A stretch of 64,000 nt of DNA from Eledone cirrhosa (GCA_964016885.1 OZ024744.1:89218001-89282000); one strand, 5' to 3'. Numbered from the stretch's first letter, positions 19,101 through 57,832 are shown. The notes: generated from the sequence alone by a model not told the origin. Program-made: numbers and translations.

Positions 19101-19499
19101 CGTTTACACCACTACACATTCAAATTACTACACACATTCACACTACTACACATTTACACTACTACACACATTCACACTACTACACGTTCACTCTACTACA
19201 CATTTACACCACTACACATTCATACTACACACGTTAACACTACTATACATTCACACTACTACACATTATCACTACTACACACATTCACACTACTACACAC
19301 ATTCACACTACTACACTTTCGCAATACTACATATTTACACTACTACACACATTTAGACTACTACATATTCACTCTACTACACATTCACAGAACTACACAC
19401 ATTCAGACTACTAAACATATTCACTACTAAACATTCACACTACTACACATTCACACTACTACACACATTTGCACTACTACACATTTACACCACTACACA

Positions 19500-22400
19500 T
19501 TCACACTACTACACACATTCACACTACTACACGTTCACACTACTACACATTCCCACTACTACACACATTAACACTACTACACACATTCACTCTACTACAC
19601 ATTCACACTACTACACATTCACACTACTACACATTAACCCTACTATATACGTTCACACTACTACACTGTTACACTACTACACACACATTCACACTACTAC
19701 ACTTTCACACTACTTCACACATTCACACTACTACACATTCGCACTACTACATATTTACACTACTACACATTCACACTACTATACATTCGGACTACTACAC
19801 ACATTCAAATTACTACACACATTCACACTACAATACATTTACACTACTACACATTCACACTACTACACATTCACACTATTACACATTCACACTACTACAC
19901 ATTAACACTACTACATGTTGACACTACTACACATTTACACTACTGCACATTCACACTACTACACATTCCCACTCCTTCCCATTAATACCACTACACATTT
20001 ACACTACTACACATTTACACTAATACACATTTACACTACTACACGTTCACTCTACTACACATTTATACTACTACACATTTACACTACTACAAATTTACAC
20101 TACTACACGTTCACTCTACTACACATTGACACTACTACACACATTTACATAACTACACATTCACACTACTACACACATTCACACTACTACACATTCACAC
20201 TACTACACATTTAGACTACTACACACATTTACATAACTACACATTCACACTACTACACACATTCACACAGCTATACATTCACACTACTACACATTGACAC
20301 TAATACACATTTACACTACTACACACATTCACGCTATTGCACATATTTACAATACTACACATTCACACTACTACACATTTACACCACTACACATTCTCAC
20401 TACTACACATTAACACTACTATACATTCGCACTACTACACACATTCACACTACTATTCACATTCACACTACTACACATTCACACTACTACACATTTACAC
20501 CACTACACATGTACACTACTACACATTCACACTAATACACACATTTACACTACTATACATTCAAACTACTACACATTCAAACTACTACACAATAACATTA
20601 CTACACATTGACACAACTACATACATTCACACTACTACACATATTTACACCATTACACATTCACACTACTACACATTCACACTACTACACATATTTACAC
20701 TACTACACATTTACACCACTAAGCATTCACCCTATTACACACATTCACACTACTACACATTCACACTACTATACATTAAAACTACTACATATTTACACTA
20801 CTACACATTCACACTACTACACATTTACACTACTACACATTCACACTACTACACATTGACACTACTACATATTCACACTACTACACATTCACACTACTAC
20901 ACATTTACACTACTACACATTCACACTACTACACATTTGCACTACTACACATTCACACTACTACACATTCACACTATTAGACATTCACACTTCTACACAT
21001 TCACAATACTGAACATTCACGTTAATATACATTCACACTACTACACACATTCACACAACTACACATTCACATTATTACACACTGACACTACTACACATTT
21101 ACACTACTACACACAATTTCACACTACTACACATTCACACTACTACACATTTACACTACTACACATTCACATACTACACATTTACACTACTACACGTTCA
21201 CACTATTACACATTCACACTACTAAACATTCACACAACTACAAACATTCACAATATTACACACATTCACACTACTACACATTCACACTACTACACATTCA
21301 AACTACTACACACATTCACTCTACTACACATTCTCACTACTACACATTCTCACTACTACACATTCTCACTACTACACATTCACATACTACACGTTCACAC
21401 TACTACACATTCACACTACTTCACATTCACACTACTACACATTTACACCACTACACATTCATACTACTACACATTCAAACTACTACACAGTTACACCACT
21501 ACATATTCACACTACTACACATTCACACTAGTAGAGACATTCACACTACTACACACATTCACACTACTACACATTCACACTACTACACATTTAGACGACT
21601 ACACACATTCAAACTACTACTCATTCACAATACTACACATTTACACCACTACACATTTACACTACTACATATTTACACTAATACACATTTACACCACTAC
21701 ACATTTACACTACTACACATTCACACTACTCCACACATTCACACTACTACACATTCACACTACTACACATTTAGACGACTACACACATTTACACTACTAC
21801 ACATTCACACTACTACACATTCACACTACTACATACATCCACACAACTACAAATCTCACTACTACACATTTACACCACTACACATTTACACTACTACACA
21901 TTTACACTACTACACACATTCACACTACTACACATTTAGACTAGTATACACATTTACACTACTACACATTCACACTAGTATACATTAAACCTACTACACA
22001 TTCACACTTCTAGACATTCACACTACTACACATTCACGCTACTACAGGTTTACACTACTACACATTCACAATACTACACATTTAGACTGCTACACACATT
22101 TACATTACTACACATTCAAAGTACTACACATTTACACCACTACACACTTACACTATTACACATTTACACTACTACACATTCACACTACTACAAATATTTA
22201 CACTACTACACATTTACACCACTACACATTCACACTACTAGACACATTCTAAACTACTACACATTCACATTGCTACACATTTCCACCACTACACATTCAT
22301 ACTACACACATTAACACTACTACACATTCACACAACTACACATAAGACTACTACACATTCACACTACTACGCATTCTCACTACTACACACGTTCACACTA

Positions 22401-25400
22401 CTACACACCTTCACATTACTACACTTTCGCAATACTACATATTTACACTACTAAACACATTCAAACTACTACACACATTTACACTACTACATATTCACTC
22501 TACAACACATTCACAGAACTACACACATTCAGACTACTAAACATTTTCACTACTACACATTCACACTACTACACATATTTACACTACTACAGATTTACAC
22601 CACTACACATTCACACTGCTACACACATTCACACTACTACACATTCACACTACTACACATTTACACCACTACACATTTACACTACTACACATTTACACTA
22701 TTACACATTCACACTACTACACATTCACACTACTACATATTTACACTACTACACATTCACTCTACTACACATTTAGACGACTACACACATTTACACTACT
22801 ACACATTCACACTACTACACATTTACACCACTACACATTCACGGTACTAAAAATTCCCACTACTACACACATTAACACTACTACACACAGTCACACTAGT
22901 ATACAATTACACTACTACACATTTACACTACTACACATTTACACTACTACATATTTACACTACTATACATTTATACTACTACACATTCAGACTACTACAC
23001 ATTTACACTACTACACATTTACACTACTACACATTTACACTATTACACATTCACACTACTCCATATTTACACTACTACACATTCACTCTACTACACATTT
23101 AGACGACTACACACATTTACACTACTACACATTCACACTACTACACATTCACACTACTACATACATCCACACAACTACTAATCTCACTACTACACATTTA
23201 CACTACTACACATTCAAGTACTACACTTTCACACTGCTACACATTCACACTATTACACATTCACACTTCTACACATTCAGACTACTGAACATTCACACTA
23301 CTACACACATTCACACTATTACACATTCACACTACTACACACATTCACACAACTACACATTCACACTATTACACATTGACACTACTACACATTTACACTA
23401 TTATACACATTCACGCTACTGCACACATTTTCACTACTAAACATTCTGACTACTACACACTTACACTACTACACACAATTTCACACTACTACACATTTAC
23501 ACTACTACACATTCACATACTACACATTCACACTACTACACGTTCACACTATTATACATTCACACTATTATACATTCACACTACTACACATTCACACTAT
23601 TACACACATTCACACTATTACACACATTCACACTACTACACATTCAGACTAGTATTCACATTCACACTAGTACACATTCACACTACTACACATTTACACT
23701 ACTATACATTCACACTACTATACATTAAACCTACAACACATTCACACTTCTACACATTCACACTACTACACATTCACACTACTACAGATTTACACTACTA
23801 CACATTCACACTACTACACATTCACACTACTACACATTTACACCACTACACATTCATACTACACACATTAACACTACTACACATTCACACTACTACAGAT
23901 TTACACTACTACACATTCACACTACTACACATTTAGACTACTACACACATTTACATTACTACACATTCACACTACTACACATTTACACCACTACACATTT
24001 ACACTACTACACATTTACACTAATACACATTTACACCACTACACATTCACACTACTACACACATTCACACTACTACACATTCACACTGCTACACATTTAC
24101 ACCACTACACATTCATACTACACACATTAACACTACTACACATTCACACAACTAGACATTAAAACTACTACACATTCACACTACTATGCATTCTCCTACT
24201 ACAAACATTCACACTACTACACACATTCACACTACTACACACAGTCACCCTACTACACACATTCACACTACTACACTCTCGCAATACTACATATTTACTC
24301 TACTAAACACATTCAAACTACTACACACATTTACACTACTGCATATTCACTTTACAACACATTCACAGAACTACACACATTCAGACTACTAAACATTTTC
24401 ACTACTACACATTCACACTACTACATACATTCACACTACTACACGTTCACACTACTACACATTTACACCACTACACATTCATACTACACACATTAACACT
24501 ACTACACATTCACACTACTACACATTTACTCCACTACACATTCACGGTACTACACATTCCCACTACTACACACATTAACACTACTACACACATTCACACT
24601 ACTAGACATTCACACTACTACACATTCACACTACTACACATTCACACTACTATACACGTTCAGACTACTACACAGTTACACTACTACACATTTAAACTAC
24701 TACACATTTACACTACGACACATTTACACTACTACACATTCATACTACTACACATTCACACTACTACACATTTACACTACTACACATTCACTCTACTACA
24801 CATTTAGACGACTAAACACATTTACACTACTACACATTCACATTACTACACATTCACACTACTACACACATTCACACTACTACACATCTCACTTCTACAT
24901 ATTTACACTGCTACACATTCACACTACTACACATTCACACTACTACACACATTCACACTACTACACATTCGCACTACTACATATTTACACTACTACACGT
25001 TTACACTACTACACATTAACACTATTACATATTGACACTACTACACATTTACGCTACTACACATTTACACTACTACACATTTACACTACTACACATTCAC
25101 ACCACTACACATTCACACTATTAAACATTCACACTACTACACATTAACACTATTATACATTGACACTACTACACATTTACACTACTTCACATTCACACTA
25201 CTAAACATTTCCACTACTACACATTTACACCACTACATATTTACACTACTACACATTTACACTAATACACATTTACACTACTACACATTCACACTACTAT
25301 ACATTTAAACTACTACACATTTACACTACTACACATTTACACTACTACACATTCACACTACTACACATTCACACTACTGCACATTTACACTACTACACAT

Positions 25401-28400
25401 TCACTCTACTACACATTTAGACGACTAAACACATTTACACTACTACACATTCACACTACTACACGTTCACACTACTACACACATTCACACTACTACACAT
25501 TTACACTACTATACATTCACACTACTATACATTAAACCTACAACACATTCACACTTCTACACATTCACACTACTACACATTCACACTACTACAGATTTAC
25601 ACTACTACACATTCACACTACTACACATTTAGACTACTACACACATTTACATTACTACACATTCAAACTACTACACATTTACACTACTACACATTTACAC
25701 TAATACACATTTACACTACTACACATTCACATTACTACACATATTTACACTACTACACATTCACACTACTACACAGATTCCCACTACTACACATTCACAC
25801 TACTACACATTTACACCACTACACATTCACACTACTACACATTTACACCACTACACATTCATACTACAAACATTAACACCACTACACATTCACACTACTA
25901 CAGATTTACACTACTACACATTCACACTACTACTCATTTAGACTACTACACACATTTACATTACTACACATTCACACTACTACACATTTACACCACTACA
26001 CATTCACACTACTACACATTTACACTAATACACATTTACACTACTACACATTCACACTACTACACATATTTACACTACTACACATTTACACCACTACACA
26101 TTCACACTACTACACACATTCACACTACTACACATTCACACTGCTACACATTTACACCACTACACATTCATACTACACACATTAACACTACTACACATTC
26201 ACACAACTAGACATTAAATCTACTACACATTCACACTACTATGCATTCTCCTACTACACACATTCACCCTACTACACACATTCACACTACTACACTCTCG
26301 CAATACTACATATTTACACTACTAAACACATTTAAACTACTACACACATTTACACTACTGCATGTTCACTCTACAACACATTCACAGAACTACACACATT
26401 CAGACTACTAAACATTTTCACTACTACACATTCACACTACTACACACATTTACACTACTACACATTTACACCACTACACATTCACACTACTACATACATT
26501 CACACTACTACACTTCACACTACTACACATTTACACCACTACACATTCATACTGCACACATTAACACTACTACACATTCACACTACTACACATTTACACC
26601 ACTACACATTCACGGTACTACACATTCCCACTACTACACACATTAACACTACTACACACATTCACACTACTAGACATTCACACTACTACACATTCACACT
26701 ACTACACATTCACACTACTATACACGTTCAGACTACTACACAGTTACACTACTACACATTTACACTACTACACATTCACACTACTACACATTTAAACTAC
26801 TACACATTTACACTACGACACATTTACACTACTACACATTCATACTACTACACATTCACACTACTACACATTTACACTACTACACATTCACTCTACTACA
26901 CATTTAGACGACTACACACATTTACACTACTACACATTCACACTACTACACATTCACACTACTACACACATTCACACTACTACACATCTCACTTCTACAT
27001 ATTTACACTGCTACACATTCACACTACTACACATTCATACTACTACACACATTCACACTACTACACATTCGCACTACTACATATTTACACTACTACACGT
27101 TTAAACTACTACACATTAACACTATTACATATTGACACTACTACACATTTACGCTAATACACATTTACACTACTACACATTTACACTACTACACATTTAC
27201 ACTACTTCACATTCACACTACTAAACATTCCCACTACTACACATTTACACCACTACATATTTACACTACTACACATTTACACTAATACACATTTACACTA
27301 CTACATATTCACACTACTATACATTTAAACTACTACACATTTACACTACTACACATTTACGCTACTACACATTCACACTACTACACATTCACACTACTGC
27401 ACATTTACACTACTACACATTCACTCTACTACACATTTAGACGACTAAACACATTTACACTACTACACATTCAAACTACTACACGTTCACACTACTACAC
27501 ACATTCACACTACTACACATCTCACTTCTACATATTTACACTGCTACACACATTTACACTACTGCACATTCACACTACTACACATCCACACTACTACACA
27601 TTTACACTACTACACATTCAAATACTACACATTCAGACTATTACACATTCACACTACTACATATTCACACTACTACACATTCACGCTACTATACATTCAC
27701 ACTACTATACATTTACACTACTCAACATTTAAACTACTACACATTTACACTACTTCAGATTTACACTACTACAAATTCACATTACTTCACATTCACACTA
27801 CTACACATTCACACTACTACCCACATTCAAACTACTACACATTCACACTACTACACACATTTACACTACTACACAATCACATTACTATACATTCACACTA
27901 CTACACATTCACACTACTACACGCATTTACACCATTATACATTCACACTACTACACATTGACACTACTACACACATTTACACTACTACACATTTACACCA
28001 CTACACATTGACACTACTACATACATTCACACTATTACACATTCACACTACTACACATTGACACTACTACACATTCACACTACTACACAATTAAACTACT
28101 ACACATTCACACTACTACACGTTCACACTACTACACACTAAAACTACTACACATTCACACAACTACACACATTCATACTACTACACTTCCACACTACTAC
28201 ATATTTACACTACTACACACATTCACACTACTACACACATTCACACTACTACACGTTCACACTACTACACATTCCCACTACTACACACATTAACACTACT
28301 ACACACATTCACTCTACTACATATTCACACTACTACACATTCACACTACTACACATTCACCCTACTATATACGTTCACACTACTACACTGTTACACTACT

Positions 28401-31400
28401 ACACACACATTCACACTACTACACTTTCACACTACTTCACACATTCACACTACTACACATTCGCACTACTACATATTTACACTACTACACATTCACACTA
28501 CTATACATTCGGACTACTACACACATTCAAATTACTACACACATTCACACTACAATACATTTACACTACTACACATTCACACTACTACACATTCACACTA
28601 TTACACATTCACACTACTACACATTAACACTACTACATGTTGACACTACTACACATTTACACTACTGCACATTCACACTACTACACATTCCCACTCCTTC
28701 CCATTAATACCACTACACATTTACACTACTACACATTTACACTAATACACATTTACACTACTACACGTTCACTCTACTACACATTTATACTACTACACAT
28801 TTACACTACTACAAATTTACACTACTACACGTTCACTCTACTACACATTGACACTACTACACACATTTACATAACTACACATTCACACTACTACACACAT
28901 TCACACTACTACACATTCACACTACTACACATTTAGACTACTGCACACATTTACATAACTACACATTCACACTACTACACACATTCACACAGCTATACAT
29001 TCACACTACTACACATTGACACTAATACACATTTACACTACTACACACATTCACGCTATTGCACATATTTACAATACTACACATTCACACTACTACACAT
29101 TTACACCACTACACATTCTCACTACTACACATTAACACTACTATACATTCGCACTACTACACACATTCACACTACTATTCACATTCACACTACTACACAT
29201 TCACACTACTACACATTTACACCACTACACATGTACACTACTACACATTCACACTAATACACACATTTACACTACTATACATTCAAACTACTACACATTC
29301 AAACTACTACACAATAACATTACTACACATTGACACAACTACATACATTCACACTACTACACATATTTACACCATTACACATTCACACTACTACACATTC
29401 ATACTACTACACATATTTACACTACTACACATTTACACCACTAAGCATTCACCCTATTACACACATTCACACTACTACACATTCACACTACTATACATTA
29501 AAACTACTACATATTTACACTACTACACATTCACACTACTACACATTTACACTACTACACATTCACACTACTACACATTGACACTACTACATATTCACAC
29601 TACTACACATTCACACTACTACACATTTACACTACTACACATTCACACTACTACACATTTACACTACTACACATTCACACTACTACACATTCACACTATT
29701 AGACATTCACACTTCTACACATTCACAATACTGAACATTCACGTTAATATACATTCACACTACTACACACATTCACACAACTACACATTCACATTATTAC
29801 ACACTGACACTACTACACATTTACACTACTACACACAATTTCACACTACTACACATTCACACTACTACACATTTACACTACTACACATTCACATACTACA
29901 CATTCACACTACTACACGTTCACACTATTACACATTCACACTACTAAACATTCACACAACTACAAACATTCACAATATTACACACATTCACACTACTACA
30001 CATTCACACTACTACACATTCAAACTACTACACACATTCACTCTACTACACATTCTCACTACTACACATTCTCACTACTACACATTCTCACTACTACACA
30101 TTCACATACTACACGTTCACACTACTACACATTCACACTACTTCACATTCACACTACTACACATTTACACCACTACACATTCATACTACTACACATTCAA
30201 ACTACTACACAGTTACACCACTACATATTCACACTACTACACATTCACACTAGTAGAGACATTCACACTACTACACACATTCACACTACTACACATTCAC
30301 ACTACTACACATTTAGACGACTACACACATTCAAACTACTACTCATTCACAATACTACACATTTACACCACTACACATTTACACTACTACATATTTACAC
30401 TAATACACATTTACACCACTACACATTTACACTACTACACATTCACACTACTCCACACATTCACACTACTACACATTCACACTACTACACATTTAGACGA
30501 CTACACACATTTACACTACTACACATTCACACTACTACACATTCACACTACTACATACATCCACACAACTACAAATCTCACTACTACACATTTACACCAC
30601 TACACATTTACACTACTACACATTTACACTACTACACACATTCACACTACTACACATTTAGACTAGTATACACATTTACACTACTACACATTCACACTAG
30701 TATACATTAAACCTACTACACATTCACACTTCTAGACATTCACACTACTACACATTCACGCTACTACAGGTTTACACTACTACACATTCACAATACTACA
30801 CATTTAGACTGCTACACACATTTACATTACTACACATTCAAAGTACTACACATTTACACCACTACACACTTACACTATTACACATTTACACTACTACACA
30901 TTCACACTACTACAAATATTTACACTACTACACATTTACACCACTACACATTCACACTACTAGACACATTCTAAACTACTACACATTCACATTGCTACAC
31001 ATTTCCACCACTACACATTCATACTACACACATTAACACTACTACACATTCACACAACTACACATAAGACTACTACACATTCACACTACTACGCATTCTC
31101 ACTACTACACACGTTCACACTACTACACACCTTCACATTACTACACTTTCGCAATACTACATATTTACACTACTAAACACATTCAAACTACTACACACAT
31201 TTACACTACTACATATTCACTCTACAACACATTCACAGAACTACACACATTCAGACTACTAAACATTTTCACTACTACACATTCACACTACTACACATAT
31301 TTACACTACTACAGATTTACACCACTACACATTCACACTGCTACACACATTCACACTACTACACATTCACACTACTACACATTTACACCACTACACATTT

Positions 31401-34400
31401 ACACTACTACACATTTACACTATTACACATTCACACTACTACACATTCACACTACTACATATTTACACTACTACACATTCACTCTACTACACATTTAGAC
31501 GACTACACACATTTACACTACTACACATTCACACTACTACACATTTACACCACTACACATTCACGGTACTAAAAATTCCCACTACTACACACATTAACAC
31601 TACTACACACAGTCACACTAGTATACAATTACACTACTACACATTTACACTACTACACATTTACACTACTACATATTTACACTACTATACATTTATACTA
31701 CTACACATTCAGACTACTACACATTTACACTACTACACATTTACACTACTACACATTTACACTATTACACATTCACACTACTCCATATTTACACTACTAC
31801 ACATTCACTCTACTACACATTTAGACGACTACACACATTTACACTACTACACATTCACACTACTACACATTCACACTACTACATACATCCACACAACTAC
31901 TAATCTCACTACTACACATTTACACTACTACACATTCAAGTACTACACTTTCACACTGCTACACATTCACACTATTACACATTCACACTTCTACACATTC
32001 AGACTACTGAACATTCACACTACTACACACATTCACACTATTACACATTCACACTACTACACACATTCACACAACTACACATTCACACTATTACACATTG
32101 ACACTACTACACATTTACACTATTATACACATTCACGCTACTGCACACATTTTCACTACTAAACATTCTGACTACTACACACTTACACTACTACACACAA
32201 TTTCACACTACTACACATTTACACTACTACACATTCACATACTACACATTCACACTACTACACGTTCACACTATTATACATTCACACTATTATACATTCA
32301 CACTACTACACATTCACACTATTACACACATTCACACTATTACACACATTCACACTACTACACATTCAGACTAGTATTCACATTCACACTAGTACACATT
32401 CACACTACTACACATTTACACTACTATACATTCACACTACTATACATTAAACCTACAACACATTCACACTTCTACACATTCACACTACTACACATTCACA
32501 CTACTACAGATTTACACTACTACACATTCACACTACTACACATTCACACTACTACACATTTACACCACTACACATTCATACTACACACATTAACACTACT
32601 ACACATTCACACTACTACAGATTTACACTACTACACATTCACACTACTACACATTTAGACTACTACACACATTTACATTACTACACATTCACACTACTAC
32701 ACATTTACACCACTACACATTTACACTACTATACATTTACACTAATACACATTTACACCACTACACATTCACACTACTACACACATTCACACTACTACAC
32801 ATTCACACTGCTACACATTTACACCACTACACATTCATACTACACACATTAACACTACTACACATTCACACAACTAGACATTAAAACTACTACACATTCA
32901 CACTACTATGCATTCTCCTACTACAAACATTCACACTACTACACACATTCACACTACTACACACAGTCACCCTACTACACACATTCACACTACTACACTC
33001 TCGCAATACTACATATTTACTCTACTAAACACATTCAAACTACTACACACATTTACACTACTGCATATTCACTTTACAACACATTCACAGAACTACACAC
33101 ATTCAGACTACTAAACATTTTCACTACTACACATTCACACTACTACATACATTCACACTACTACACGTTCACACTACTACACATTTACACCACTACACAT
33201 TCATACTACACACATTAACACTACTACACATTCACACTACTACACATTTACTCCACTACACATTCACGGTACTACACATTCCCACTACTACACACATTAA
33301 CACTACTACACACATTCACACTACTAGACATTCACACTACTACACATTCACACTACTACACATTCACACTACTATACACGTTCAGACTACTACACAGTTA
33401 CACTACTACACATTTAAACTACTACACATTTACACTACGACACATTTACACTACTACACATTCATACTACTACACATTCACACTACTACACATTTACACT
33501 ACTACACATTCACTCTACTACACATTTAGACGACTAAACACATTTACACTACTACACATTCACATTACTACACATTCACACTACTACACACATTCACACT
33601 ACTACACATCTCACTTCTACATATTTACACTGCTACACATTCACACTACTACACATTCACACTACTACACACATTCACACTACTACACATTCGCACTACT
33701 ACATATTTACACTACTACACGTTTACACTACTACACATTAACACTATTACATATTGACACTACTACACATTTACGCTACTACACATTTACACTACTACAC
33801 ATTTACACTACTACACATTCACACCACTACACATTCACACTATTAAACATTCACACTACTACACATTAACACTATTATACATTGACACTACTACACATTT
33901 ACACTACTTCACATTCACACTACTAAACATTTCCACTACTACACATTTACACCACTACATATTTACACTACTACACATTTACACTAATACACATTTACAC
34001 TACTACACATTCACACTACTATACATTTAAACTACTACACATTTACACTACTACACATTTACACTACTACACATTCACACTACTACACATTCACACTACT
34101 GCACATTTACACTACTACACATTCACTCTACTACACATTTAGACGACTAAACACATTTACACTACTACACATTCACACTACTACACGTTCACACTACTAC
34201 ACACATTCACACTACTACACATTTACACTACTATACATTCACACTACTATACATTAAACCTACAACACATTCACACTTCTACACATTCACACTACTACAC
34301 ATTCACACTACTACAGATTTACACTACTACACATTCACACTACTACACATTTAGACTACTACACACATTTACATTACTACACATTCAAACTACTACACAT

Positions 34401-36960
34401 TTACACTACTACACATTTACACTAATACACATTTACACTACTACACATTCACATTACTACACATATTTACACTACTACACATTCACACTACTACACAGAT
34501 TCCCACTACTACACATTCACACTACTACACATTTACACCACTACACATTCACACTACTACACATTTACACCACTACACATTCATACTACAAACATTAACA
34601 CCACTACACATTCACACTACTACAGATTTACACTACTACACATTCACACTACTACTCATTTAGACTACTACACACATTTACATTACTACACATTCACACT
34701 ACTACACATTTACACCACTACACATTCACACTACTACACATTTACACTAATACACATTTACACTACTACACATTCACACTACTACACATATTTACACTAC
34801 TACACATTTACACCACTACACATTCACACTACTACACACATTCACACTACTACACATTCACACTGCTACACATTTACACCACTACACATTCATACTACAC
34901 ACATTAACACTACTACACATTCACACAACTAGACATTAAATCTACTACACATTCACACTACTATGCATTCTCCTACTACACACATTCACCCTACTACACA
35001 CATTCACACTACTACACTCTCGCAATACTACATATTTACACTACTAAACACATTTAAACTACTACACACATTTACACTACTGCATGTTCACTCTACAACA
35101 CATTCACAGAACTACACACATTCAGACTACTAAACATTTTCACTACTACACATTCACACTACTACACACATTTACACTACTACACATTTACACCACTACA
35201 CATTCACACTACTACATACATTCACACTACTACACTTCACACTACTACACATTTACACCACTACACATTCATACTGCACACATTAACACTACTACACATT
35301 CACACTACTACACATTTACACCACTACACATTCACGGTACTACACATTCCCACTACTACACACATTAACACTACTACACACATTCACACTACTAGACATT
35401 CACACTACTACACATTCACACTACTACACATTCACACTACTATACACGTTCAGACTACTACACAGTTACACTACTACACATTTACACTACTACACATTCA
35501 CACTACTACACATTTAAACTACTACACATTTACACTACGACACATTTACACTACTACACATTCATACTACTACACATTCACACTACTACACATTTACACT
35601 ACTACACATTCACTCTACTACACATTTAGACGACTACACACATTTACACTACTACACATTCACACTACTACACATTCACACTACTACACACATTCACACT
35701 ACTACACATCTCACTTCTACATATTTACACTGCTACACATTCACACTACTACACATTCACACTACTACACACATTCACACTACTACACATTCGCACTACT
35801 ACATATTTACACTACTACACGTTTAAACTACTACACATTAACACTATTACATATTGACACTACTACACATTTACGCTAATACACATTTACACTACTACAC
35901 ATTTACACTACTACACATTTACACTACTTCACATTCACACTACTAAACATTCCCACTACTACACATTTACACCACTACATATTTACACTACTACACATTT
36001 ACACTAATACACATTTACACTACTACATATTCACACTACTATACATTTAAACTACTACACATTTACACTACTACACATTTACGCTACTACACATTCACAC
36101 TACTACACATTCACACTACTGCACATTTACACTACTACACATTCACTCTACTACACATTTAGACGACTAAACACATTTACACTACTACACATTCACACTA
36201 CTACACGTTCACACTACTACACACATTCACACTACTACACATCTCACTTCTACATATTTACACTGCTACACACATTTACACTACTGCACATTCACACTAC
36301 TACACATCCACACTACTACACATTTACACTACTACACATTCAAATACTACACATTCAGACTATTACACATTCACACTACTACATATTCACACTACTACAC
36401 ATTCACGCTACTATACATTCACACTACTATACATTTACACTACTCAACATTTAAACTACTACACATTTACACTACTTCAGATTTACACTACTACAAATTC
36501 ACATTACTTCACATTCACACTACTACACATTCACACTACTACCCACATTCAAACTACTACACATTCACACTACTACACACATTTACACTACTACACAATC
36601 ACATTACTATACATTCACACTACTACACATTCACACTACTACACGCATTTACACCATTATACATTCACACTACTACACATTGACACTACTACACACATTT
36701 ACACTACTACACATTTACACCACTACACATTGACACTACTACATACATTCACACTATTACACATTCACACTACTACACATTGACACTACTACACATTCAC
36801 ACTACTACACAATTAAACTACTACACATTCACACTACTACACGTTCACACTACTACACACTAAAACTACTACACATTCACACAACTACACACATTCATAC
36901 TACTACACTTCCACACTACTACATATTTACACTACTACACACATTCACACTACTACACAC
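19500..36960. repeat. Higher-order tandem duplication in satellite B, period 8,722 bp (2 near-identical copies)
   Basis: Translated frames repeat at a fixed offset (19915/28637, 20337/29059, 23376/32098, 24186/32908, 26362/35084) with only isolated substitutions. Confidence 0.95.
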
Positions 36961-38250
36961 ATTTATTCTACTAGATATTCACACTACTGCACATTCACAC
37001 TACTTCACATACATTTACACTACTACATATTCACACTACTACACATTCACACAGCTACACACATTCAGACTACTATACATTTTCACTAGTAAACATTCAC
37101 AATACTACACATTCACACTACTACACATTCACACTAATATACATTCCCACTACTACACACATTCATACTACTGCACAAATTGACACTACTACACATTCAC
37201 ACTACTATACATATTCACACTACTACACATTCACACTATTACACATTCACGCTACTACACATTCACACTACTAAACATTCACACTACTACACACATTCAG
37301 ACTACTACACATTGACACTACTACACACATTCACACAACTACACATTCACACTACTACACATTTACACTACTAAACACATTGACGCTACTAAACATCCTG
37401 ACTACTACACATTTACACTACTACACACACATTCACACTACTACACATTCACACTACTACACATTCACACTACTACACATTTACACTACTACTCATTTAC
37501 ACTTCTGCACATTTACACTACTACACATTCACACTACTACACATTCACACTACTACACATTCACACTACTACACATTTACACTACTACACATTCACACAA
37601 CTACACACATTCATACTACTACACACATAAATACTACATATTTACACTACTACACACATTCACACTACTACACACATTTATTCTACTAGATGTTCACGCT
37701 TCTGCACATTCACACTACTACACATTCACACTACTTCACACACATTTACACTACTACATATTCACACTACTACACATTCACACAGCTACACAGATTCAGG
37801 CTACTAAACATTTTCACTAGTAAACATTCACAATACTACACATTTACACTACTACACATTCACACTACTACACATTCACACTAATATACATTCCCACTAC
37901 TACACATTCACACTACTACACACATTCACACTACTACACATTCACACTACTATACATATTCACACTACTACACATTCACACTACTACACATTTACACTAC
38001 TACACAAATTGACACTACTACACATTTACACCACTACACATTCACACTACTACACATTTACACTACTACACATTCACACTACTACACATTTACACCACTA
38101 CACATTCACACTACTACACATTTACACTACTACACATTCACACTACTATAAATTCGCACTACTACACATTCACACTACTCCACACATCCAGACTAATACA
38201 CATTTACACTACTACACATTCACACTACTACACATTCACACTACTACACC

Positions 38251-38532
38251 CATATTGGCTCATACAAACATATACAAATAATTCCAAAATTCATACATAT
38301 TACAATTGTAGGTGTATTTCCCTTCGTCAGCTGTCAACTGAATAAATTTGTAGTTTCAGGTGTGACGGGAGCAATACGCTTCCCAGTGCACCAGTCGACC
38401 CTAAAGAAAGGAATTTTTTCAGCACGAATACCAGACAATACCTGTAGATTTCGGTGTAAATAGAGCTGTCGAGAGAGAGAGATACATATATATAAACACA
38501 CATACACACACACATACATAAATATATATATA
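38251..38532 (-). ncRNA. Satellite-embedded cassette copy 1: split/permuted hammerhead-like structured RNA (GUA triplet)
   Basis: Minus strand reads acacc-GAAA-tctacagg-TA-ttgtc ...~100-nt nested hairpin... gacag-CTGACGA-agggaaatacacc. The repeat is certain; the ribozyme call is inferred from motifs and manual pairing. Confidence 0.55.
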
Positions 38533-40139
38533 TTTACACTACTACACATTCTCACTACTACACACATTCACACTACTACACACATTCAGACTACTACACT
38601 TTCACACTACTACACATTTACACTAATACACACATTCACACTACTAAACATTTTCACTACTAAACATTCAAACTACTACACATTTACACTACTACACACA
38701 CATTCACACTACAACCCATTCACACTACTACACATTTACACTACTACACACATTTACAATACTACACATTGACACTACTACACATTTACACTGCTACACA
38801 AATTCACACTACTACACAGATGTACACTACTACACATTTACAATACAACACATTGACACTACTACACAATCACACTACTACACATTCACACTACTACATA
38901 TTTACACTACTACAAATTTACACTACTACACATTCACACTACTACACTTTCACGCTACTACACATTCACACTACTACACATTGACACTACCACACATTCA
39001 CACTACTACATACATTCACACAACTACACATTCACACTACTAAACTTTTACACTACTACACATTCAGACTACTACACATTTACACAACTACACATTTAAA
39101 TACTACACATTCACACTACTACACATTCACACTATTACACATTCACACTACTACACATTCACACTACTAAACATTCACACTACTACACACATTCAGACTA
39201 CTACACATTGACACTACTACACACATTCACACAACTACACATTCACACTGCTACACACATTCAGACTACTACACATTGACACTACTACACACATTCACAC
39301 AACTACACATTCACACTACTACACATTTACACTACTAAACACATTGACGCTACTAAACACATTTCCACTACTAAACATCCTGACTACTACACATTTACAC
39401 TACTACACACACATTCACACTACTACACATTCACACTACTACACATTCACACTACTACCCATTTACACTACTACTCATTTACACTTCTACACATTTACAC
39501 TACTACACATTCACACTACTACACATTCACACTACTACCCACATTCACGCTATTACACATTCACACTACTACACATTCACACTACTACACATTTACACTA
39601 CTACACATTCACACAACTACACACATTCATACTACTACACTTCCACACTACTACATATTTACACTACTACACACATTCACACTACTACACACATTTATTC
39701 TACTAGATATTCACACTACTACACATTCACACTACTTCACACACATTTACACTACTACATATTCACACTACTACACATTCACACAGCTACACACATTCAG
39801 ACTACTAAACATTTTCACTAGTAAACATTCACAATACTACACATTCACACTACTACACATTCACACTAATATACATTCCCACTACTACACACATTCACAC
39901 TACTACACAAATTCACACTACTACACATTCATACTACTATACATATTCACACTACTACACATTCACACTACGACACATTCACACTACTACACATTTACAC
40001 CACTACACATTCACACTACTACACATTCACACTACTATAAATTCCCACTACTACACATTCACACTACTCCACACATCCAGACTAATACACATTTACACTA
40101 CTACACATTCACACTACTACACATTCACACTACTACACC

Positions 40140-40421
40140 CATATTGGCTCATACAAACATATACAAATAATTCCAAAATTCATACATATTACAATTGTAG
40201 GTGTATTTCCCTTCGTCAGCTGTCAACTGAATAAATTTGTAGTTTCAGGTGTGACGGGAGCGATACGCTTCCCAGTGCACCAGTCGACCCTAAAGAAAGG
40301 AATTTTTTCAGCACGAATACCAGACAAGACCTGTAGATTTCGGTGTAAATAGAGCTGTCGAGAGAGAGAGATACATATATATAAACACACATACACACAC
40401 ACATACATAAATATATATATA
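40140..40421 (-). ncRNA. Satellite-embedded cassette copy 2 (GUC triplet)
   Basis: Near-identical to copy 1; GAAA-tctacagg-TC-ttgtc; apical hairpin AGCG-TAT-CGCT fully Watson-Crick. Confidence 0.55.
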
Positions 40422-41991
40422 TTTACACTACTACACATTCTCACTACTACACACATTCAAACTACTACACACATTCACACTACTACACTTTCACACTACT
40501 ACACATTTACACTACTACACACATTCACACTAAAAAACATTTTCACTACTAAACATTCACACTACTACACATTTACACTACTACACACACATTCACACTA
40601 CAACACATTCACACTACTAGACATTCGCACTACTACACACATTTACAATACTACACGTTGACACTACTACACATTTACACTACTGCACAAATTCACACTA
40701 CTACACAGATGTACACTACTACACATTTACACCACTAAACATTCACATTACTATGCATTTACACTACTAAACATTCACACTACTACACATTTACACTACT
40801 ACGCACATTTACAATACTACACATTGACACTACTACACATTCACACTACTACACAGATTTACACTACTACACGATCACACTACTACACATTCACACTACT
40901 ACACATTTACACTACTACACATTCACACTACAACACATTAACACTACCACACATTCACACTACTACATACATTCACACAATTACACATTCACACTACTAA
41001 ACATTTACACTACTACACATTCAGACTATTACACGTTCACACGACTACATATTTACACTGCTACACACATTTAGACTACTGCACATTCACATTACTACAC
41101 ATTTACACTACTACACATTTAAATACTACACATTCACACTACTACACATTCACACTATTACACATTCACACTACTACACATTCACACTATTACACATTCA
41201 CACTACTACATATTCACACTACTAAACATTCACACTACTACACACATTCAGATTACTACACATTGACACTACTACACACATTCACACTACTACACATTCA
41301 CACTACTACACATTGACACTACTACACATTTACACTACTAAACACATTGACGCTACTAAACACATTTTCACTACTAAAAATCCTGACTACTACACATTTA
41401 CACTACTACACACACATTCACACTACTACGCATTCACACTACTACACATTCACACTACTACACATTCACACTACTACACATTCACACTACTACACATTTA
41501 CACTACTACACATTTACACTACACACACATTCACACTACAACACATTCACACTACCACACAATCACACTACTACATACATTCATACAACTACACATTCAC
41601 ACTACTAAACATTTACACTACTACACATTCAGACTATTACACATTCACACTACTACATATTTACACTGCTACACACATTTACACTACTACACATTCCCAC
41701 TACTACACATTCACACTACTACACATTTACACTACTACACATTGACACTACTACACATTTACACTACTAAACACATTCACGCTACTAAACACATTTTCAC
41801 TTCTAAACATCCTGACTACTAACTACACATTCACACTACTACACATTCTCACTACTACACATTCACACCACTACACATTCACACTACTATAAATTCCCAC
41901 TACTACACATTCACACTACTCCACACATCCAGACTACTACACATTTAGACTACTACACATTCACACTACTACACATTCACACTACTACACA

Positions 41992-42273
41992 CATATTGGC
42001 TCATACAAACATATACAAATAATTCAAAAATTCATACATATTACAATTGTAGGTGTATTTCCCTTCGTCAGCTGTCAACTGAATAAATTTGTAGTTTCAG
42101 GTGTGACGGGAGCAATACGCTTCCCAGTGCACCAGTCGACCCTAATGAAAGGAATTTTTTCAGCACGAATACCAGACAAGACCTGTAGATTTCGGTGTAA
42201 ATAGAGCTGTCGAGAGAGAGAGATACATATATATAAACACACATATAAACACACATACATAAATATATATATA
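41992..42273 (-). ncRNA. Satellite-embedded cassette copy 3 (GUC triplet)
   Basis: Near-identical to copy 1; shares diagnostic variants (CTAATGAAAGG, ATTCAAAAA) with copy 5. Confidence 0.55.
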
Positions 42274-43145
42274 TTTACACTACTACACATTCTCACTACT
42301 TCACACATTCACACTACTACACACATTCACACTACTACACTTTCACACTACTACACATTTACACTACTACACGCATTCACACTACAAAACATTTTCACTA
42401 CTAAACATTCACACTACTACACATTTATACTACTACACACACATTCACACTACAACACATTCACACTACTAGACATTCACACTACTACACACATTTACAA
42501 TACTACACGTTGACACTACTACACATTTACACTACTGCACAAATTCACACTACTACACAGATGTACACTACTATACATTTACACCACTACACATTCACGC
42601 TACTACACATTTACACTACTAAACATTCACACTACTACACATTTACACTACTACACACATTTACAATACTACACGTTGACACTACTACACAGTCACACTA
42701 CTACACATTCACACTACTACATATTTACACTACTACAAATTTACACCACTACACATTCACACTACTACACTTTCACGCTACTACACATTCACACTACTAC
42801 ACATTGACACTACCACACATTCACACTACTACATACATTCACACAACTACACATTCACACTACTAAACATTTACACTACTACACATTCAGACTATTACAC
42901 ATTTAGACTACTACATATTTACACTGCTACACAAATTTACACTACTACACTTTCACACTACTACACTTTCACACTACTACACATTCACACTACTACACAT
43001 TCACACTACTACACATTCACACTATTACACATTCACACTACTACACATTCACACTACTAAACATTCACACTACTCCACACATCCAGACTACTACACATTT
43101 ACACTACTACACATTCACACTACTACACATTCACACTACTACACC

Positions 43146-43430
43146 CATATTGGCTCATACAAACATATACAAATAATTGCAAAATTCATACATATTACAA
43201 TTGTAGGTGTATTTCCCTTCGTCAGCTGTCAACTGAATAAATTTGTAGTTTCAGGTGTGACGGGAGCAATACGCTTCCCAGTGCACCAGTCGACCCTAAA
43301 GAAAGGAATTTTTTTCAGCACGAATACCAGACAAGACCTGTAGATTTGGGTGTAAATAGAGCTGTCGAGAGAGAGAGATACATATATATAAACACACATA
43401 CACACACACATACATAAATATATATATATA
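43146..43430 (-). ncRNA. Satellite-embedded cassette copy 4 (core GAAA mutated to CAAA, predicted inactive)
   Basis: Plus strand has GATTTGGGTGT instead of GATTTCGGTGT, and one extra T in the T-run. Confidence 0.45.
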
Positions 43431-45000
43431 TTTACACTACTACACATTCTCTCTACTACACACATTAACACTACTACACACATTCACACTACTACACTTT
43501 CACACTACTACACATTTACACTACTACACACATTCACACTACAAAACATTTTCACTACTAAACATTCACACTACTACACATTTACACTACTACACACACA
43601 TTCACACTACAACACATTCACACTACTAGACATTCGCACTACTACACACATTTACAATACTACACGTTGACACTACTATACATTTACACTACTGCACAAA
43701 TTCACACTACTACACAGATGTACACTACTACACATTTACACCACTAAACATTCACATTACTATGCATTTACACTACTAAACATTCACACTACTACACATT
43801 TACACTACTACGCACATTTACAATACTACACATTGACACTACTACGCATTCACACTACTACACAGATTTACACTACTACACGATCACACTACTACACATT
43901 CACACTACTACACATTTACACTACTACACATTCACACTACAACACATTAACACTACCACACATTCACACTACTACATACATTCACACAACTACACATTCA
44001 CACTACTAAACATTTACACTACTACACATTCAGACTATTACACGTTCACACTACTACATATTTACACTGCTACACACATTTAGACTACTGCACATTCACA
44101 TTACTACACATTTACACTACTACACATTTAAATACTACACATTCACACTACTACACATTCACACTTTTACACATTCACACTACTACACATTCACACTATT
44201 ACACATTCACACTACTACATATTCACACTACTAAACATTCACACTCCTACACACATTCAGATTACTACACATTGACACTACTACACACATTCACACTACT
44301 ACACATTCACACTACTACACATTGACACTACTACACATTTACACTACTAAACACATTGACGCTACTAAACACATTTTCACTACTAAAAATCCTGACTACT
44401 ACACATTTACACTACTACACACACATTCACACTACTACGCATTCACACTACTACACATTCACACTACTACACATTCACACTACTACACATTCACACTACT
44501 ACACATTTACACTACTTCACATTTACACTACACACACATTCACACTACAAGACATTGACACTACCACACAATCACACTACTACATACATTCACACAACTA
44601 CACATTCACACTACTAAACATTTACACTACTACACATTCAGACTATTACACATTCACACTACTACATATTTACACTGCTACACACATTTACACTACTACA
44701 CATTCCCACTACTACACATTCACACTACTACACATTTACACTACTACACATTGACACTACTACACATTTACACTACTAAACACATTCACGCTACTAAACA
44801 CATTTTCACTTCTAAACATCCTGACTACTAACTACACATTCACACTACTACACATTCTCACTACTACACATTCACACCACTACACATTCACACTACTATA
44901 AATTCCCACTACTACACATTCACACTACTCCACACATCCAGACTACTACACATTTAGACTACTACACATTCACACTACTACACATTCACACTACTACACA

Positions 45001-45282
45001 CATATTGGCTCATACAAACATATACAAATAATTCAAAAATTCATACATATTACAATTGTAGGTGTATTTCCCTTCGTCAGCTGTCAACTGAATAAATTTG
45101 TAGTTTCAGGTGTGACGGGAGCAATACGCTTCCCAGTGCACCAGTCGACCCTAATGAAAGGAATTTTTTCAGCACGAATACCAGACAAGACCTGTAGATT
45201 TCGGTGTAAATAGAGCTGTCGAGAGAGAGAGATACATATATATAAACACACATATAAACACACATACATAAATATATATATA
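45001..45282 (-). ncRNA. Satellite-embedded cassette copy 5 (GUC triplet)
   Basis: Matches copy 3 at +3,009 bp. Confidence 0.55.
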
Positions 45283-46741
45283 TTTACACTACTACACATT
45301 CTCACTACTTCACACATTCACACTACTACACACATTCACACTACTACACTTTCACACTACTACACATTTACACTACTACACACATTCACACTACAAAACA
45401 TTTTCACTACTAAACATTCACACTACTACACATTTATACTACTACACACACATTCACACTACAACACATTCACACTACTAGACATTCACACTACTACACA
45501 CATTTACAATACTACACGTTGACACTACTACACATTTACACTACTGCACAAATTCACACTACTACACAGATGTACACTACTACACATTTACACCACTACA
45601 CATTCACGCTACTACACATTTACACTACTAAACATTCACACTACTACACATTTACACTACTACACACATTTACAATACTACACGTTGACACTACTACACA
45701 ATCACACTACTACACATTCACACTACTACATATTTACACTACTACAAATTTACACCACTACACATTTACACTACTACTCTTTCACGCTACTACACATTCA
45801 CACTACTACACATTGACACTACCACACATTCACACTACTACATACATTCACACAACTACACATTCACACTACTAAACATTTACACTACTACACATTCAGA
45901 CTATTACACATTTAGACTACTACATATTTACACTGCTACACAAATTTACACTACTACACTTTCACACTACTACACTTTCACACTACTACACATTCACACT
46001 ACTACACATTCACACTACTACACATTCACACTATTACACATTCACACTACTACACATTCACACTACTAAACATTCACACTACTACACACATTCAGACTAC
46101 TACACATTGACACTACTACACACATTCACACAACTACACATTCACACTACTACACATTTACACTACTAAACACATTGACGCTACTAAACACATTTCCACT
46201 ACTAAACATCCTGACTACTACACATTTACACTACTACACACACATTCACATTACTACACATTCACACTAACTACACATTTACACTACTACACATTTACAC
46301 TACTACTCATTTACACTTCTACACCTTTACACTACTACACATTCACACTACTACACATTCACACTACTACCCACATTCACACTACTACACATTCACACTA
46401 CTACACATTCACACTACTACACATTTACACTACTACACATTTACACTACTACACATTCACACTACTATACATTCTCACAACTACACACATTCAGACTACT
46501 AAACATTTTCACTACTAAACATTCACAAAACTACACATTTACTCTACTCCACATTCACACTACTACACATTCCCACTACTACACATTCACACTACTACAC
46601 ATTTACACTACTACATATTGACACTACTACACATTTACACTACTATATATTCACACTACTACACACACATTTACACTACTACACATTTACACTACTACAC
46701 ATTCACTACTACACATTCACGAGTGAAAGTATAAAGAAAAA

Positions 46742-46979
46742 AAGATGAAATCGAAAATGCAACTGGAGTCTTATTTTAAAATATATATATATATTTATTT
46801 GGTTCCTTTACCGGTTTCGCAGTTCTTCTGCTTTTTACAGATGTGAGAAAAACCACAGACCCTCCATCTCAACTCTACTTTTAAAAAGCAGAAGAACTGC
46901 GAAATCGGTAAAGTAACCAAATAAATATATATATATATTTTTTTAAATAAGACTCCAGTTGCATTTTCGATTACATCTT
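46742..46979. repeat. ~95-bp inverted repeat (arms 46742-46837 and 46882-46979) containing decayed minimal hammerhead motifs
   Basis: Arms are near-perfect reverse complements. Right arm: tactt-TTAAAAA-gcag(aagaa)ctgc-GAAA-tcgg-TA-aagta; left arm (minus) has GAAA-CCGG-TA. The CUGANGA box is degenerate. Confidence 0.8.
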
Positions 46980-47011
46980 CTTATATATTTATATATATAT
47001 ATATATATATA

Positions 47012-47649
47012 TAATGTATAAAAATCAATACAATATAATTACCTCATTACCAGAGGTTTCCCGAATGAGGCGAATACGAAAGAAACGTCTTCATTCGTTC
47101 GTCAGACGAGGCAATATAAAAGATGGGTAAATACTTGCAAAGTCTCATCAAAAAAAGCAAAGAAACAAAAAAACAAAAAAGATATAGACAAATGAATTAG
47201 AATATGAAATATATAATAATCTTTCAAGAAATATAGTTAGGTGTGTGTATATGTATGTATATACGCTCACAGATGTGCATATATGTGTATGCACATATGT
47301 ATACGTATAGTGAAAAAGTGTGCGTAAATATATAATTTAGAGCAAATGTATCTGTATGTCTGTAATCTACAGACAGAATAGATACATCATAAGAATATGA
47401 AGGCACGCGCATAAACACACCTACACACACGTACACTTAGATGCGGAAGTAAAAGAGGTAAGGGAGTGTAATAATTAAAGGAAAGTATCAATCTCGATAT
47501 ATTTATAAAAATGGAACAATAATTTAGAAAGAAAAAATTAAAGAAAAGAAGACAAACATACATACACACACACGTATATCTCACAAAAGAAACGCAAAAA
47601 TATACATGCTTATATACACATGCACACTTACACATCCATACGTTCGATA

Positions 47650-47702
<53 letters not shown>

Positions 47703-47833
47703 TTACACTCACGCATATTGACCTGTTTGCATGCACACGCATAAAAATGAGTAAGTAAAAAAAGGGGGAGAAGAAAAAAGGAACAAAACATAAAACCTAG
47801 ATGTAAAAAACACGGATATAAAGACATACACAT

Positions 47834-47905
<72 letters not shown>

Positions 47906-49804: not shown

Positions 49805-49949
49805 TAGATAATTTAGATTGAAAAGGGTTAGAGTACTTACGAAAATTGATATTGTTGATTAGTTTAACTAGGTCTAATTCAATATAGTTAACTAGGTCTA
49901 ATTCAATAATATTAAAACAAAAATAGTTCTAGATTCACCCAATTTGACA

Positions 49950-57490: not shown

Positions 57491-57832
57491 TAAACTGCAA
57501 TTTAAAAAAAAAAACCTAAAATCTTGATTCTTCACCCTAAAATAGCATAAATTAAATATTTTCAAACTTAACCGTTTAACTTTCGGAAAATCTCCTTCTA
57601 CATATATTCCCTCTCTCTATGTATATTATCTCAGCGGCTCTCATTGACCCCGCTTTCCCTGATAAATTGTAGTATCATACATTTTAAAATCTCTATAACT
57701 GTTACATTAAGCAACGTTTTTCTATTGAATTTATTACGTTTTCGCATTTTCTCATTATTAGGGTATAAATGTTAAACTTTCTCTTAGGTTAATCACTACC
57801 TTGATTAAATCTTAATCATTTAACATCATTAT

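What the first reader, a model, noticed from the sequence alone, without database searches (positions are those of the whole stretch)
38251..45282. Five satellite-embedded cassettes carry a split, circularly permuted hammerhead closing a ~140-nt rod-like RNA
Seen: a ~280-bp unique cassette interrupts satellite B five times (38251, 40140, 41992, 43146, 45001). In copy 1 the minus strand reads tacacc-GAAA(38452-38449)-tctacagg-U-H-ttgtc ... gacag-CUGACGA(38330-38324)-agggaaa-tacacc. All HHR core bases are present but in permuted order; ttgtc/gacag forms stem I; TACACC is repeated 142 nt apart, so joining the ends rebuilds an intact type I HHR (gacag CUGACGA a gg gaaataca cc GAAA ucuacagg UC uuguc). 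Between the halves are nested helices: ctgaaaaaatt/aatttattcag, ggtg/cacc and gggaagcg-tat-(c/t)gctccc. Two of the variants fit the fold (GUC vs GUA triplet; GC vs GU pair). Known: non-LTR retrozymes and newt, schistosome and cricket satellites carry HHRs and yield small monomeric or circular RNAs. Inference: this is an integrated permuted retrozyme/circRNA monomer or a type II HHR that could cut satellite transcripts into 1.2-1.9-kb pieces. The linear-form stem II is weak.
Basis: partly seen in the sequence, partly recalled or inferred. Interest (0 to 1): 0.8.

Follow-up and report, generated by a model that had tools for sequence, protein, structure and literature searches.

The report
Re-wired hammerhead ribozyme of Naiad retroelements
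The five inserts are near-identical, damaged copies of one mobile repeat caught in a satellite, and that repeat family, like the published Naiad jumping genes of octopus, squid, coral and a comb jelly that were said to lack a standard self-cutting RNA, carries a predicted hammerhead ribozyme wired in an order I could not find described; cutting is untested.

Summary
The five ~280-bp cassettes and the quoted motifs are real. The cassette is instead a colinear, decayed member of a dispersed Penelope-type repeat family (111 near-full motif copies collected, six subfamilies). The family keeps all hammerhead core elements in the non-circular order cleavage site - GAAA - CUGANGA (type SGC-like). Helix III and its extension covary between subfamilies (2 of 720 permutations each). 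Helix II is apparently formed by an upstream strand, not by the bases after CUGANGA, so block C is split. By eye the same wiring, with different helix sequences, lies at the 3' end of 7 of 53 published Naiad consensus ends (octopus, squid, Acropora, Beroe), elements reported to lack canonical hammerheads. The window's copies have a broken cleavage site and are probably inactive. No Naiad ORF was linked in this genome; cleavage is untested.

The parts
38251..38535 (-). Cassette copy 1: decayed fragment of subfamily A of the repeat family plus a (GA)n/(TA)n/(CA)n microsatellite flank
40140..40424 (-). Cassette copy 2 (family-homologous part about 40350-40160)
   Evidence: covered by a public-run contig
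41992..42276 (-). Cassette copy 3
43146..43433 (-).
45001..45285 (-). Cassette copy 5; shares diagnostic bases and a 100% identical 300-nt upstream flank with copy 3 (recent 3,009-bp duplication)
40277..40281 (-). Strand X (copy 2): pairs with the bases just before GAAA and is predicted to form helix II; 4 of 5 pairs kept here
40270..40275 (-). 5' strand of helix Pb, the outer extension of helix III (partner 40232-40227); 5 of 6 pairs kept
40256..40266 (-). Block S homologue (helix III 3' strand, cleavage dinucleotide, helix I 3' strand): broken in all five copies (position 17 is G, helix I 3 of 5, helix III 3 of 4)
40239..40252 (-). Block G: X partner, family-conserved GAAA (40246-40243) and helix III 5' strand
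40213..40224 (-). Block C: helix I 5' strand GACAG and core CUGACGA (40219-40213), intact
40323..40343 (-).
16138..46720 (.). Host satellite (16-bp period) whose 1.2-1.9-kb higher-order duplications multiplied the cassette

Best explanation
The cassettes are five satellite-duplicated copies of one decayed, likely inactive fragment of a dispersed repeat family that is likely derived from Naiad-type Penelope-like retroelements and carries a predicted hammerhead ribozyme in a re-wired order. Family layout, 5' to 3': strand X - helix Pb - helix III strand - U-H cleavage site - helix I strand - short linker - partner of X - GAAA - helix III strand - (3-nt bulge, GA) - helix Pb - 2 nt - helix I strand - CUGANGA - tail. 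Helices III and Pb form one long hairpin; helix I and helix X are two pseudoknots into its loop. This is the block order S-G-C of Eckert et al. 2023, but helix II is supplied by X, far upstream, so the chain is opened inside block C, between A9 and position 10. In most subfamilies the bulge between helices III and Pb fits the kink-turn pattern (recalled consensus), which would bend the long hairpin back so that X and the helix I strand reach the core. In an intact element the ribozyme would cut tandem read-through transcripts into unit-length RNA for the retroelement's reverse transcriptase; with a full 4-bp or longer helix III it would work as a monomer, unlike the dimer-dependent minimal hammerheads of other Penelope-like elements. 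Shown: family membership, colinearity, conservation of the three blocks, covariation of helix III and Pb, damage in the cassette. Read by eye from published consensus sequences: the same wiring in Naiads. Inferred: cleavage, kink-turn, helix II identity, role in transposition, descent of this family from a Naiad.
For: Family: 48 exact matches of the block C pattern and 38 of an S-G-C pattern with a fixed 13-nt spacer, both with 0 control matches; 111 near-full-length motif copies of 150 distinct profile hits, six subfamilies. All six subfamilies have majority U16.1, H17 = A or C, C3, G5, A6, G8, A9, GAAA, with position 7 free (T, C, A). Helix III: 24 of 24 majority pairs within subfamilies, four different sequences, cross-subfamily mean 2.5 of 4, 2 of 720 label permutations as good; Pb 33 of 36, 2 of 720. 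On an independent MAFFT alignment of 32 of the 111 copies: 88.9% of cells paired against 77.1% shuffled and 22-52% slid; covariation score 0.392 against 0.190, 0 of 500. Helix X: Watson-Crick pairs 5 of 720 permutations; in 16 further subfamily-F-like copies found by flank similarity 67 of 93 cells paired against 27-44% slid; pairing of the tail after CUGANGA with the same strand has no support (184-306 of 720; 39-60% with slid controls 30-72%). Element anatomy is Penelope-like: partial tandems (motif spacings about 0.1, 0.33 and 0.58-0.86 kb), inverted 5' copies and (TA)n flanks, features that Craig et al. 2021 give for Naiads. Published Naiad consensus 3' ends (PMC8557442 supplement, read by eye): Naiad_Obim and _Ovul show X GACACC/GGTGTC, helix III ATGG/CCAT, helix I CTGCC/GGCAG and the same 23-nt GAAA-to-CUGAUGA distance; three Acropora Naiads show helix III 11 of 11 pairs, helix I TAGGA/TCCTA, X GGCTCC/GGAGCC, Pb 10 of 10; Naiad_Bfor and Naiad_Esco also fit. 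In the Acropora, Beroe and Euprymna elements the tail cannot pair with position 11.1, so X has to supply helix II. Cassette damage: position 17 G, helix I 3 of 5, helix III 3 of 4, bulge GA lost. Amplification with the satellite: flanks 87-100% alike against 80-86% for 19 of 20 random satellite pairs.
Against: No cleavage or RNA data; no RNA holder was listed (see Tried and rejected). No Naiad ORF was found beside any motif in this genome and a Naiad endonuclease pattern found nothing, so descent rests on shared layout and partial sequence likeness to octopus Naiad ends. Helix I is nearly invariant within this genome (no covariation, 720 of 720 permutations); its covariation comes only from the by-eye reading of Naiads. 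Helix X loses significance when G-U pairs count (120 of 720) and in subfamilies A and B it does not include position 11.1. In one search the number of pairs with two-sided change (9 of 16) was reached by 44 of 500 shuffles. Part of the sample was selected with patterns holding the core, so core conservation is partly circular; in the flank-selected subfamily B sample position 4 is C in 22 of 41 copies (a U4C variant lowers activity in vitro, PMC3088659 passage). Only 9 of 111 copies are fully intact. Position 11.1 is A in several C and D copies. The second kink-turn G is U in subfamilies D, E and half of C. Six subfamilies, two of them with 3-4 copies, are few independent lineages. 46 of 53 displayed Naiad ends did not show this wiring.
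Confidence: 0.72

Rival explanations
1. The family motif is an ordinary type-SGC hammerhead with block C intact: the first one or two bases after CUGANGA form a 1-2-bp helix II, and helix X is only an auxiliary or regulatory helix.
For: A purine follows A9 in nearly all copies and pairs with position 11.1 in 90% of subfamily A and 85% of B cells. Natural hammerheads with 1-2-bp helix II exist (PMC3088659 passage). In A and B, X does not reach 11.1.
Against: No covariation for any tail register; the pair fails in majority for D, E, F; the tail folds on itself in 72 of 88 copies tested; in the Acropora, Beroe and Euprymna Naiad ends the tail cannot pair with 11.1 while X makes 6 pairs (by eye).
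Confidence: 0.13
2. One reading: the cassette is a type II hammerhead, or one permuted 142-nt retrozyme monomer, that cuts satellite transcripts; in its mildest form the decayed copy regained a working hammerhead by recruiting an upstream GAAA and cleavage site.
For: All core bases are present in type II order with a perfect 5-bp helix I in four of five copies; 2-bp helix II occurs in natural type II hammerheads; the arrangement is absent from the other 76 evaluable family copies, so it is at least unusual.
Against: Helix I and II probabilities 0.0; fold 13-17 kcal/mol above the minimum; z about -1.5; hexamer repeat expected by chance; an upstream U-H plus helix I complement is cheap (50 of 79 copies); no other genomic copy of its 5' half; colinear with the family; no Rfam hammerhead match.
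Confidence: 0.07
3. The double-pseudoknot fold is real but no longer catalytic; it serves as the RNA handle by which the retroelement's protein recognises its 3' end.
For: U4C majority in subfamily B, A at 11.1 in C and D, invariant helix I flank sequence in this genome; minimal PLE hammerheads cleave poorly in vitro (PMC4209133).
Against: Every catalytic position, the free position 7 and the U-H rule are kept while helix sequences change, in this genome and in Naiads of three phyla.
Confidence: 0.08

Closest known systems
Type-SGC hammerhead ribozymes (HRIMA-1 and variants; Eckert, Friedrich, Weinberg, Weinberg 2023, PMC10085705; sections 7, 13-16, 18 part 1 and passages read)
   Same: Block order cleavage site - GAAA - CUGANGA, doubly pseudoknotted core, short linker between helix I and helix II strands, full core.
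   Different: [quoted passage not shown] It assumes block C cannot be interrupted; here helix II is supplied by an upstream strand, helix III is extended through a bulge, and the tail is free.
Naiad clade of Penelope-like elements (Craig, Yushenova, Rodriguez, Arkhipova 2021, PMC8557442; passages and supplement passages read)
   Same: (TA)n targets, partial tandem and inverted copies; the same motif at the 3' end of 7 published consensus sequences; cephalopod copies described as remnants.
   Different: The paper found no canonical hammerhead in Naiads and marked some only as core or half core; it gives no structure. The copies here carry no ORF.
Non-LTR retrozymes of animals (Cervera and de la Pena 2020, PMC7229834, passages; Li, Clavereau, Pollet 2026 preprint, part 1 of 5 and passages)
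   Same: Non-coding, ribozyme-bearing, tandem-prone repeats thought to use PLE proteins.
   Different: Those carry type I hammerheads in 150-450-bp tandem units and yield circular RNA; here the order is not type I, copies are mostly single or partial tandems, and expression is untested.
Minimal hammerheads of Penelope-like elements (Cervera and de la Pena 2014, PMC4209133, parts 1-2 of 4 read)
   Same: Same place (3' end / pseudo-LTR), tolerance of an extra base between positions 9 and 10.1.
   Different: Type I order with vestigial palindromic helix III needing dimers; here helix III is a full intramolecular helix.

Membership tests
Hammerhead ribozyme (family motif) | Core CUGANGA, GAAA and U-H with free position 7 | tested here: met
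   Majority in six of six subfamilies except U4C in B; sample partly pattern-selected
Hammerhead ribozyme (family motif) | Helices I and III flanking the cleavage site | tested here: met
   Helix III covaries; helix I 30 of 30 majority pairs but invariant here
Hammerhead ribozyme (family motif) | Helix II closing the GAAA / CUGANGA junction | tested here: inconclusive
   Upstream strand X favoured, tail not supported; not directly attached to A9
Hammerhead ribozyme (family motif) | Site-specific self-cleavage | not testable with these tools
   No assay or RNA reads
Hammerhead ribozyme (window cassettes, family register) | Intact U-H site and helix I | tested here: not met
   Position 17 G, helix I 3 of 5 in all versions
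Type-SGC hammerhead | Block order S-G-C | tested here: met
Type-SGC hammerhead | Block C uninterrupted (helix II strand directly after CUGANGA) | tested here: not met
   Naiad ends by eye
Non-LTR retrozyme | Type I hammerhead in each tandem unit | tested here: not met
   Order is S-G-C; Rfam gave no hammerhead match on the region or among the 150 of 154 rows shown for 8 family loci
Non-LTR retrozyme | Monomeric and circular RNA in cells | not testable with these tools
   No RNA run listed
Naiad PLE | ORF with N-terminal GIY-YIG and C-terminal RT | tested here: not met
   None next to the motif in the loci held; copies are non-coding fragments
Naiad PLE | Partial tandem / inverted pseudo-LTR structure and (TA)n targets | tested here: met
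Kink-turn (recalled consensus) | 3-nt bulge followed by tandem G-A / A-G | tested here: inconclusive
   GA after a 3-nt bulge and opposite A in six of six subfamilies; second G in A, B, F and half of C; Acropora and Beroe ends have other inserts

The most novel reading that the evidence does not exclude
Naiad retroelements of molluscs, corals and ctenophores, and their non-coding derivatives, carry an active hammerhead in a wiring outside the six block orders thought possible: non-circular S-G-C order with the chain opened between A9 and helix II, folded as a double pseudoknot (with a kink-turn in cephalopods). It would be the first non-circularly permuted ribozyme family in animal genomes and would explain why Naiads seemed to lack hammerheads.
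Probability: 0.6. Interest if true: 0.85.

Novelty: new variant of a known kind. Interest (0 to 1): 0.72.

Why it matters
Craig et al. 2021 left open why Naiads, among the most prolific Penelope-like elements, lack the hammerhead that other clades keep, and suggested hammerheads may be mere passengers. A conserved, re-wired hammerhead at the same place would turn that around and is testable with a 100-nt transcript. For ribozyme structure, Eckert et al. 2023 counted six possible wirings on the assumption that block C is never split and found non-circular forms almost only in environmental sequence; this would add a wiring, show the A9-10.1 link is dispensable, and place it in animal genomes. 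Descriptor searches for type I hammerheads would have missed these elements. The five window copies themselves are ordinary fossils.

Tried and rejected
Rfam scans of 36000-48000 and of 8 family loci: no hammerhead family among the rows shown, only microsatellite-driven miRNA matches below threshold plus a U6 and a tRNA. Sequencing runs: no RNA holder listed; two RAD-seq runs gave no reads and were no test. Searching for the parent ORF: Pfam scan of 102 of 133 listed open frames near motifs found two GIY-YIG pieces and several RT pieces; the GIY-YIG family of L047 has its own ordinary type I motif and none of its 30 loci had the family motif downstream on the same strand; PLE ORFs beside L150, L153, L155, L256 showed no shared flank with the motif and were judged neighbours; 20 upstream extensions and 25 further loci gave no linked ORF; a Naiad endonuclease DNA pattern found nothing; a Naiad 3' pattern gave 4 matches against 7 control matches, two of which (L238, L239) resemble the motif. 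ViennaRNA on single intact copies cannot form pseudoknots and picked different helices in different copies, so it is uninformative. A minimal type I reading (CUGANGA-3 nt-GAAA in the tail) was dropped: no conserved cleavage site and helix I strand follow. The helix X rows (one register only; wrong columns) are superseded. Dropped rows: 15 truncated or palindromic copies left out of the profile seed, 39 partial hits of 150 left out of counts, 3 cassette versions excluded from majority counts, 32 copies without a readable core box excluded. Not-in-print claim rests on searches: hammerhead + non-circular permutation, octopus + hammerhead ribozyme (38), Naiad + hammerhead + Penelope (74), hammerhead + type-SGC (75), 4 of hammerhead/Penelope/pseudoknot/permut/kink-turn (87); the library lacks most subscription papers, and I did not read the supplement of PMC10085705, where further type-SGC hosts could be listed.


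Full report
Observation. The window holds two simple satellites; the second (16-bp period, 16138-46720) is interrupted five times by a cassette 98.3-100% identical over 235 nt. Flanks of the five copies are 87-100% (upstream) and 94-99% (downstream) alike against 80-86% for 19 of 20 random satellite pairs, so this is one insertion multiplied by satellite duplications; copies 3 and 5 are the youngest pair. The genome is 3.0 Gb in 1,796 contigs; from its size, repeats and likeness to octopus Naiad ends I infer a cephalopod, which I did not test.

Rfam gave no hammerhead match. The segment folds no better than shuffles as a line (z -1.48) or as the 142-nt circle (z -1.49). Its helices I and II have pairing probability 0.0, and forcing them costs 16.7 or 13.4 kcal/mol. 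A repeated hexamer occurs in 458 of 500 shuffles.

The family. A DNA search found one distant relative; patterns around CUGACGA then found 48 exact matches, and flank-based searches many more. A sequence-only profile gave 226 hits in the loci held, 150 distinct, 111 near full length, in six subfamilies (A 43 with three cassette versions, B 41, C 11, F 9, D 4, E 3). An upstream GAAA-helix III-UH-helix I block exists in 3 of 79 evaluable copies, all cassettes, whereas U-H plus a helix I complement alone occurs in 50 of 79.

What the family conserves. In every subfamily GAAA lies 23 nt upstream of CUGANGA, and upstream of GAAA lies U-H followed by a strand complementary to the five bases before CUGANGA. 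The four bases before U-H pair with the four after GAAA in 24 of 24 majority pairs, in four different sequences; swapping subfamily labels matches this in 2 of 720 permutations. A second helix (Pb) extends helix III across a 3-nt bulge followed by GA (33 of 36, 2 of 720). An independent alignment of 32 of the 111 copies, chosen by me to balance subfamilies, gave 88.9% paired cells (77.1% shuffled, 22-52% slid) and a covariation score of 0.392 against 0.190, though the count of pairs with two-sided change was reached by 44 of 500 shuffles. This is the order S-G-C, the non-circular permutation of Eckert et al. [quoted passage not shown]

Helix II. The bases after CUGANGA show no supported pairing with the strand before GAAA in any of three registers and mostly fold on themselves (72 of 88). 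That strand pairs instead with strand X just 5' of Pb (Watson-Crick only 5 of 720; with G-U 120 of 720; 67 of 93 cells in 16 new flank-selected copies, slid 27-44%). Eckert et al. assume block C is never interrupted by more than one or two bases; here it appears opened between A9 and helix II. PLE hammerheads commonly hold an extra base at that link (PMC4209133), so the backbone there tolerates change. The bulge fits the kink-turn pattern as I recall it in A, B, F and half of C; a kink would bring the far end of the long hairpin back to the core (inference).

Link to Naiads. The repeats show partial tandems, inverted 5' copies and (TA)n flanks. Craig et al. 2021 (PMC8557442) describe these traits for Naiads, report no canonical hammerhead in them and flag eight as half core, including one octopus and one squid element. 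I displayed the last 260-330 nt of 53 of the 54 Naiad consensus sequences in their supplement and read them by eye, without computation. Seven show the same wiring with different helix sequences: two octopus elements (same 23-nt spacing and bulge, helix I and III changed on both sides), Euprymna, three Acropora (helix III 11 bp, Pb 10 bp, X 6 bp, helix I unrelated in sequence) and Beroe (helix I only 2 bp, large insert). These are about four independent lineages in three phyla. In the coral, ctenophore and squid elements the tail cannot pair with position 11.1. The other 46 ends did not show it; six nematode ends show the ordinary order with a long helix II, and nine bivalve or hemichordate ends resemble HDV-like ribozymes (recalled). 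I could not tie the family to a Naiad ORF in this genome, in line with the paper's remark that cephalopod Naiads are remnants.

The window copies. In family register they keep blocks G and C, 4 of 5 X pairs and 5 of 6 Pb pairs, but position 17 is G, helix I keeps 3 of 5 pairs, helix III 3 of 4, and the bulge GA is lost. They are most likely inactive. Nine of 111 copies, in subfamilies B and C, are complete by the same test.

Mechanism, rivals and weight. Most likely the intact motif cuts tandem element transcripts to unit length as a monomer (inferred from the role proposed for PLE hammerheads). Weak points are listed in the Against line: no cleavage data, partly pattern-selected sample, U4C majority in subfamily B (active in vivo but slow in vitro in a viroid, PMC3088659 passage), few lineages, by-eye Naiad reading.

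Novelty. Five literature searches found no description of a non-circular hammerhead in PLEs or animals. Earlier unchecked notes of this scan mention a rearranged hammerhead in a Naiad-like element of another genome and a phage hammerhead opened inside its core; they are leads, not support.

Noticed in passing
PMC8557442 supplement, nematode Naiad consensus ends: Six or more nematode Naiads end in an ordinary-order hammerhead core with an unusually long helix II insert, which fixed-length descriptors would miss.
   Followed up: no
PMC8557442 supplement, bivalve and hemichordate Naiad ends: Nine ends carry a motif that looks like an HDV-like ribozyme (recalled pattern, untested), suggesting Naiad lineages swapped ribozyme classes.
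   Followed up: no
PMC8557442 supplement, ostracod and spider Naiad ends: CUGANGA preceded by a C run and followed by a strand pairing upstream: possibly another hammerhead wiring.
   Followed up: no
L159, L165, L184, L185, about 410-470 nt after the GIY-YIG stop: A very abundant Neptune-like PLE family (11,910 first-look candidates; clade name recalled) carries an ordinary type I minimal hammerhead with the U3-A8 core variant and a palindromic helix III.
   Followed up: partly
L145:1206-1665: Short tandem array (about 107-146-nt units) of the re-wired motif, the closest thing to a classical retrozyme array in this family.
   Followed up: partly
L186-L215: Subfamily B is a non-coding 0.6-0.86-kb unit inserted as more-than-unit tandems with inverted ends; its commonest core is CCGAAGA.
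   Followed up: partly
window 47105, 51234, 54833, 55020, 55231: Other CUGANGA-bearing repeat fragments, two pairs of them in inverted orientation; the family profile does not match them.
   Followed up: no
window 48383-49858 (-) and 56874-57515 (-): Open frames resembling Penelope-like RT and GIY-YIG pieces (by motif, recalled).
   Followed up: no
window 59209-60174 and 61828-62631 (+): LINE-like RT frame and a low-complexity frame like the ORF1 seen in L154.
   Followed up: no
window 46791-46928: Long inverted repeat flanked by (TA)n; a longer perfect version lies in L044.
   Followed up: no
window 1-14712: A second satellite of 10/20-bp period with opposite strand skew to the 16-bp one.
   Followed up: no
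L108:3545-3649 and L145:2887-2958: A U6 snRNA copy and a tRNA above Rfam thresholds.
   Followed up: no
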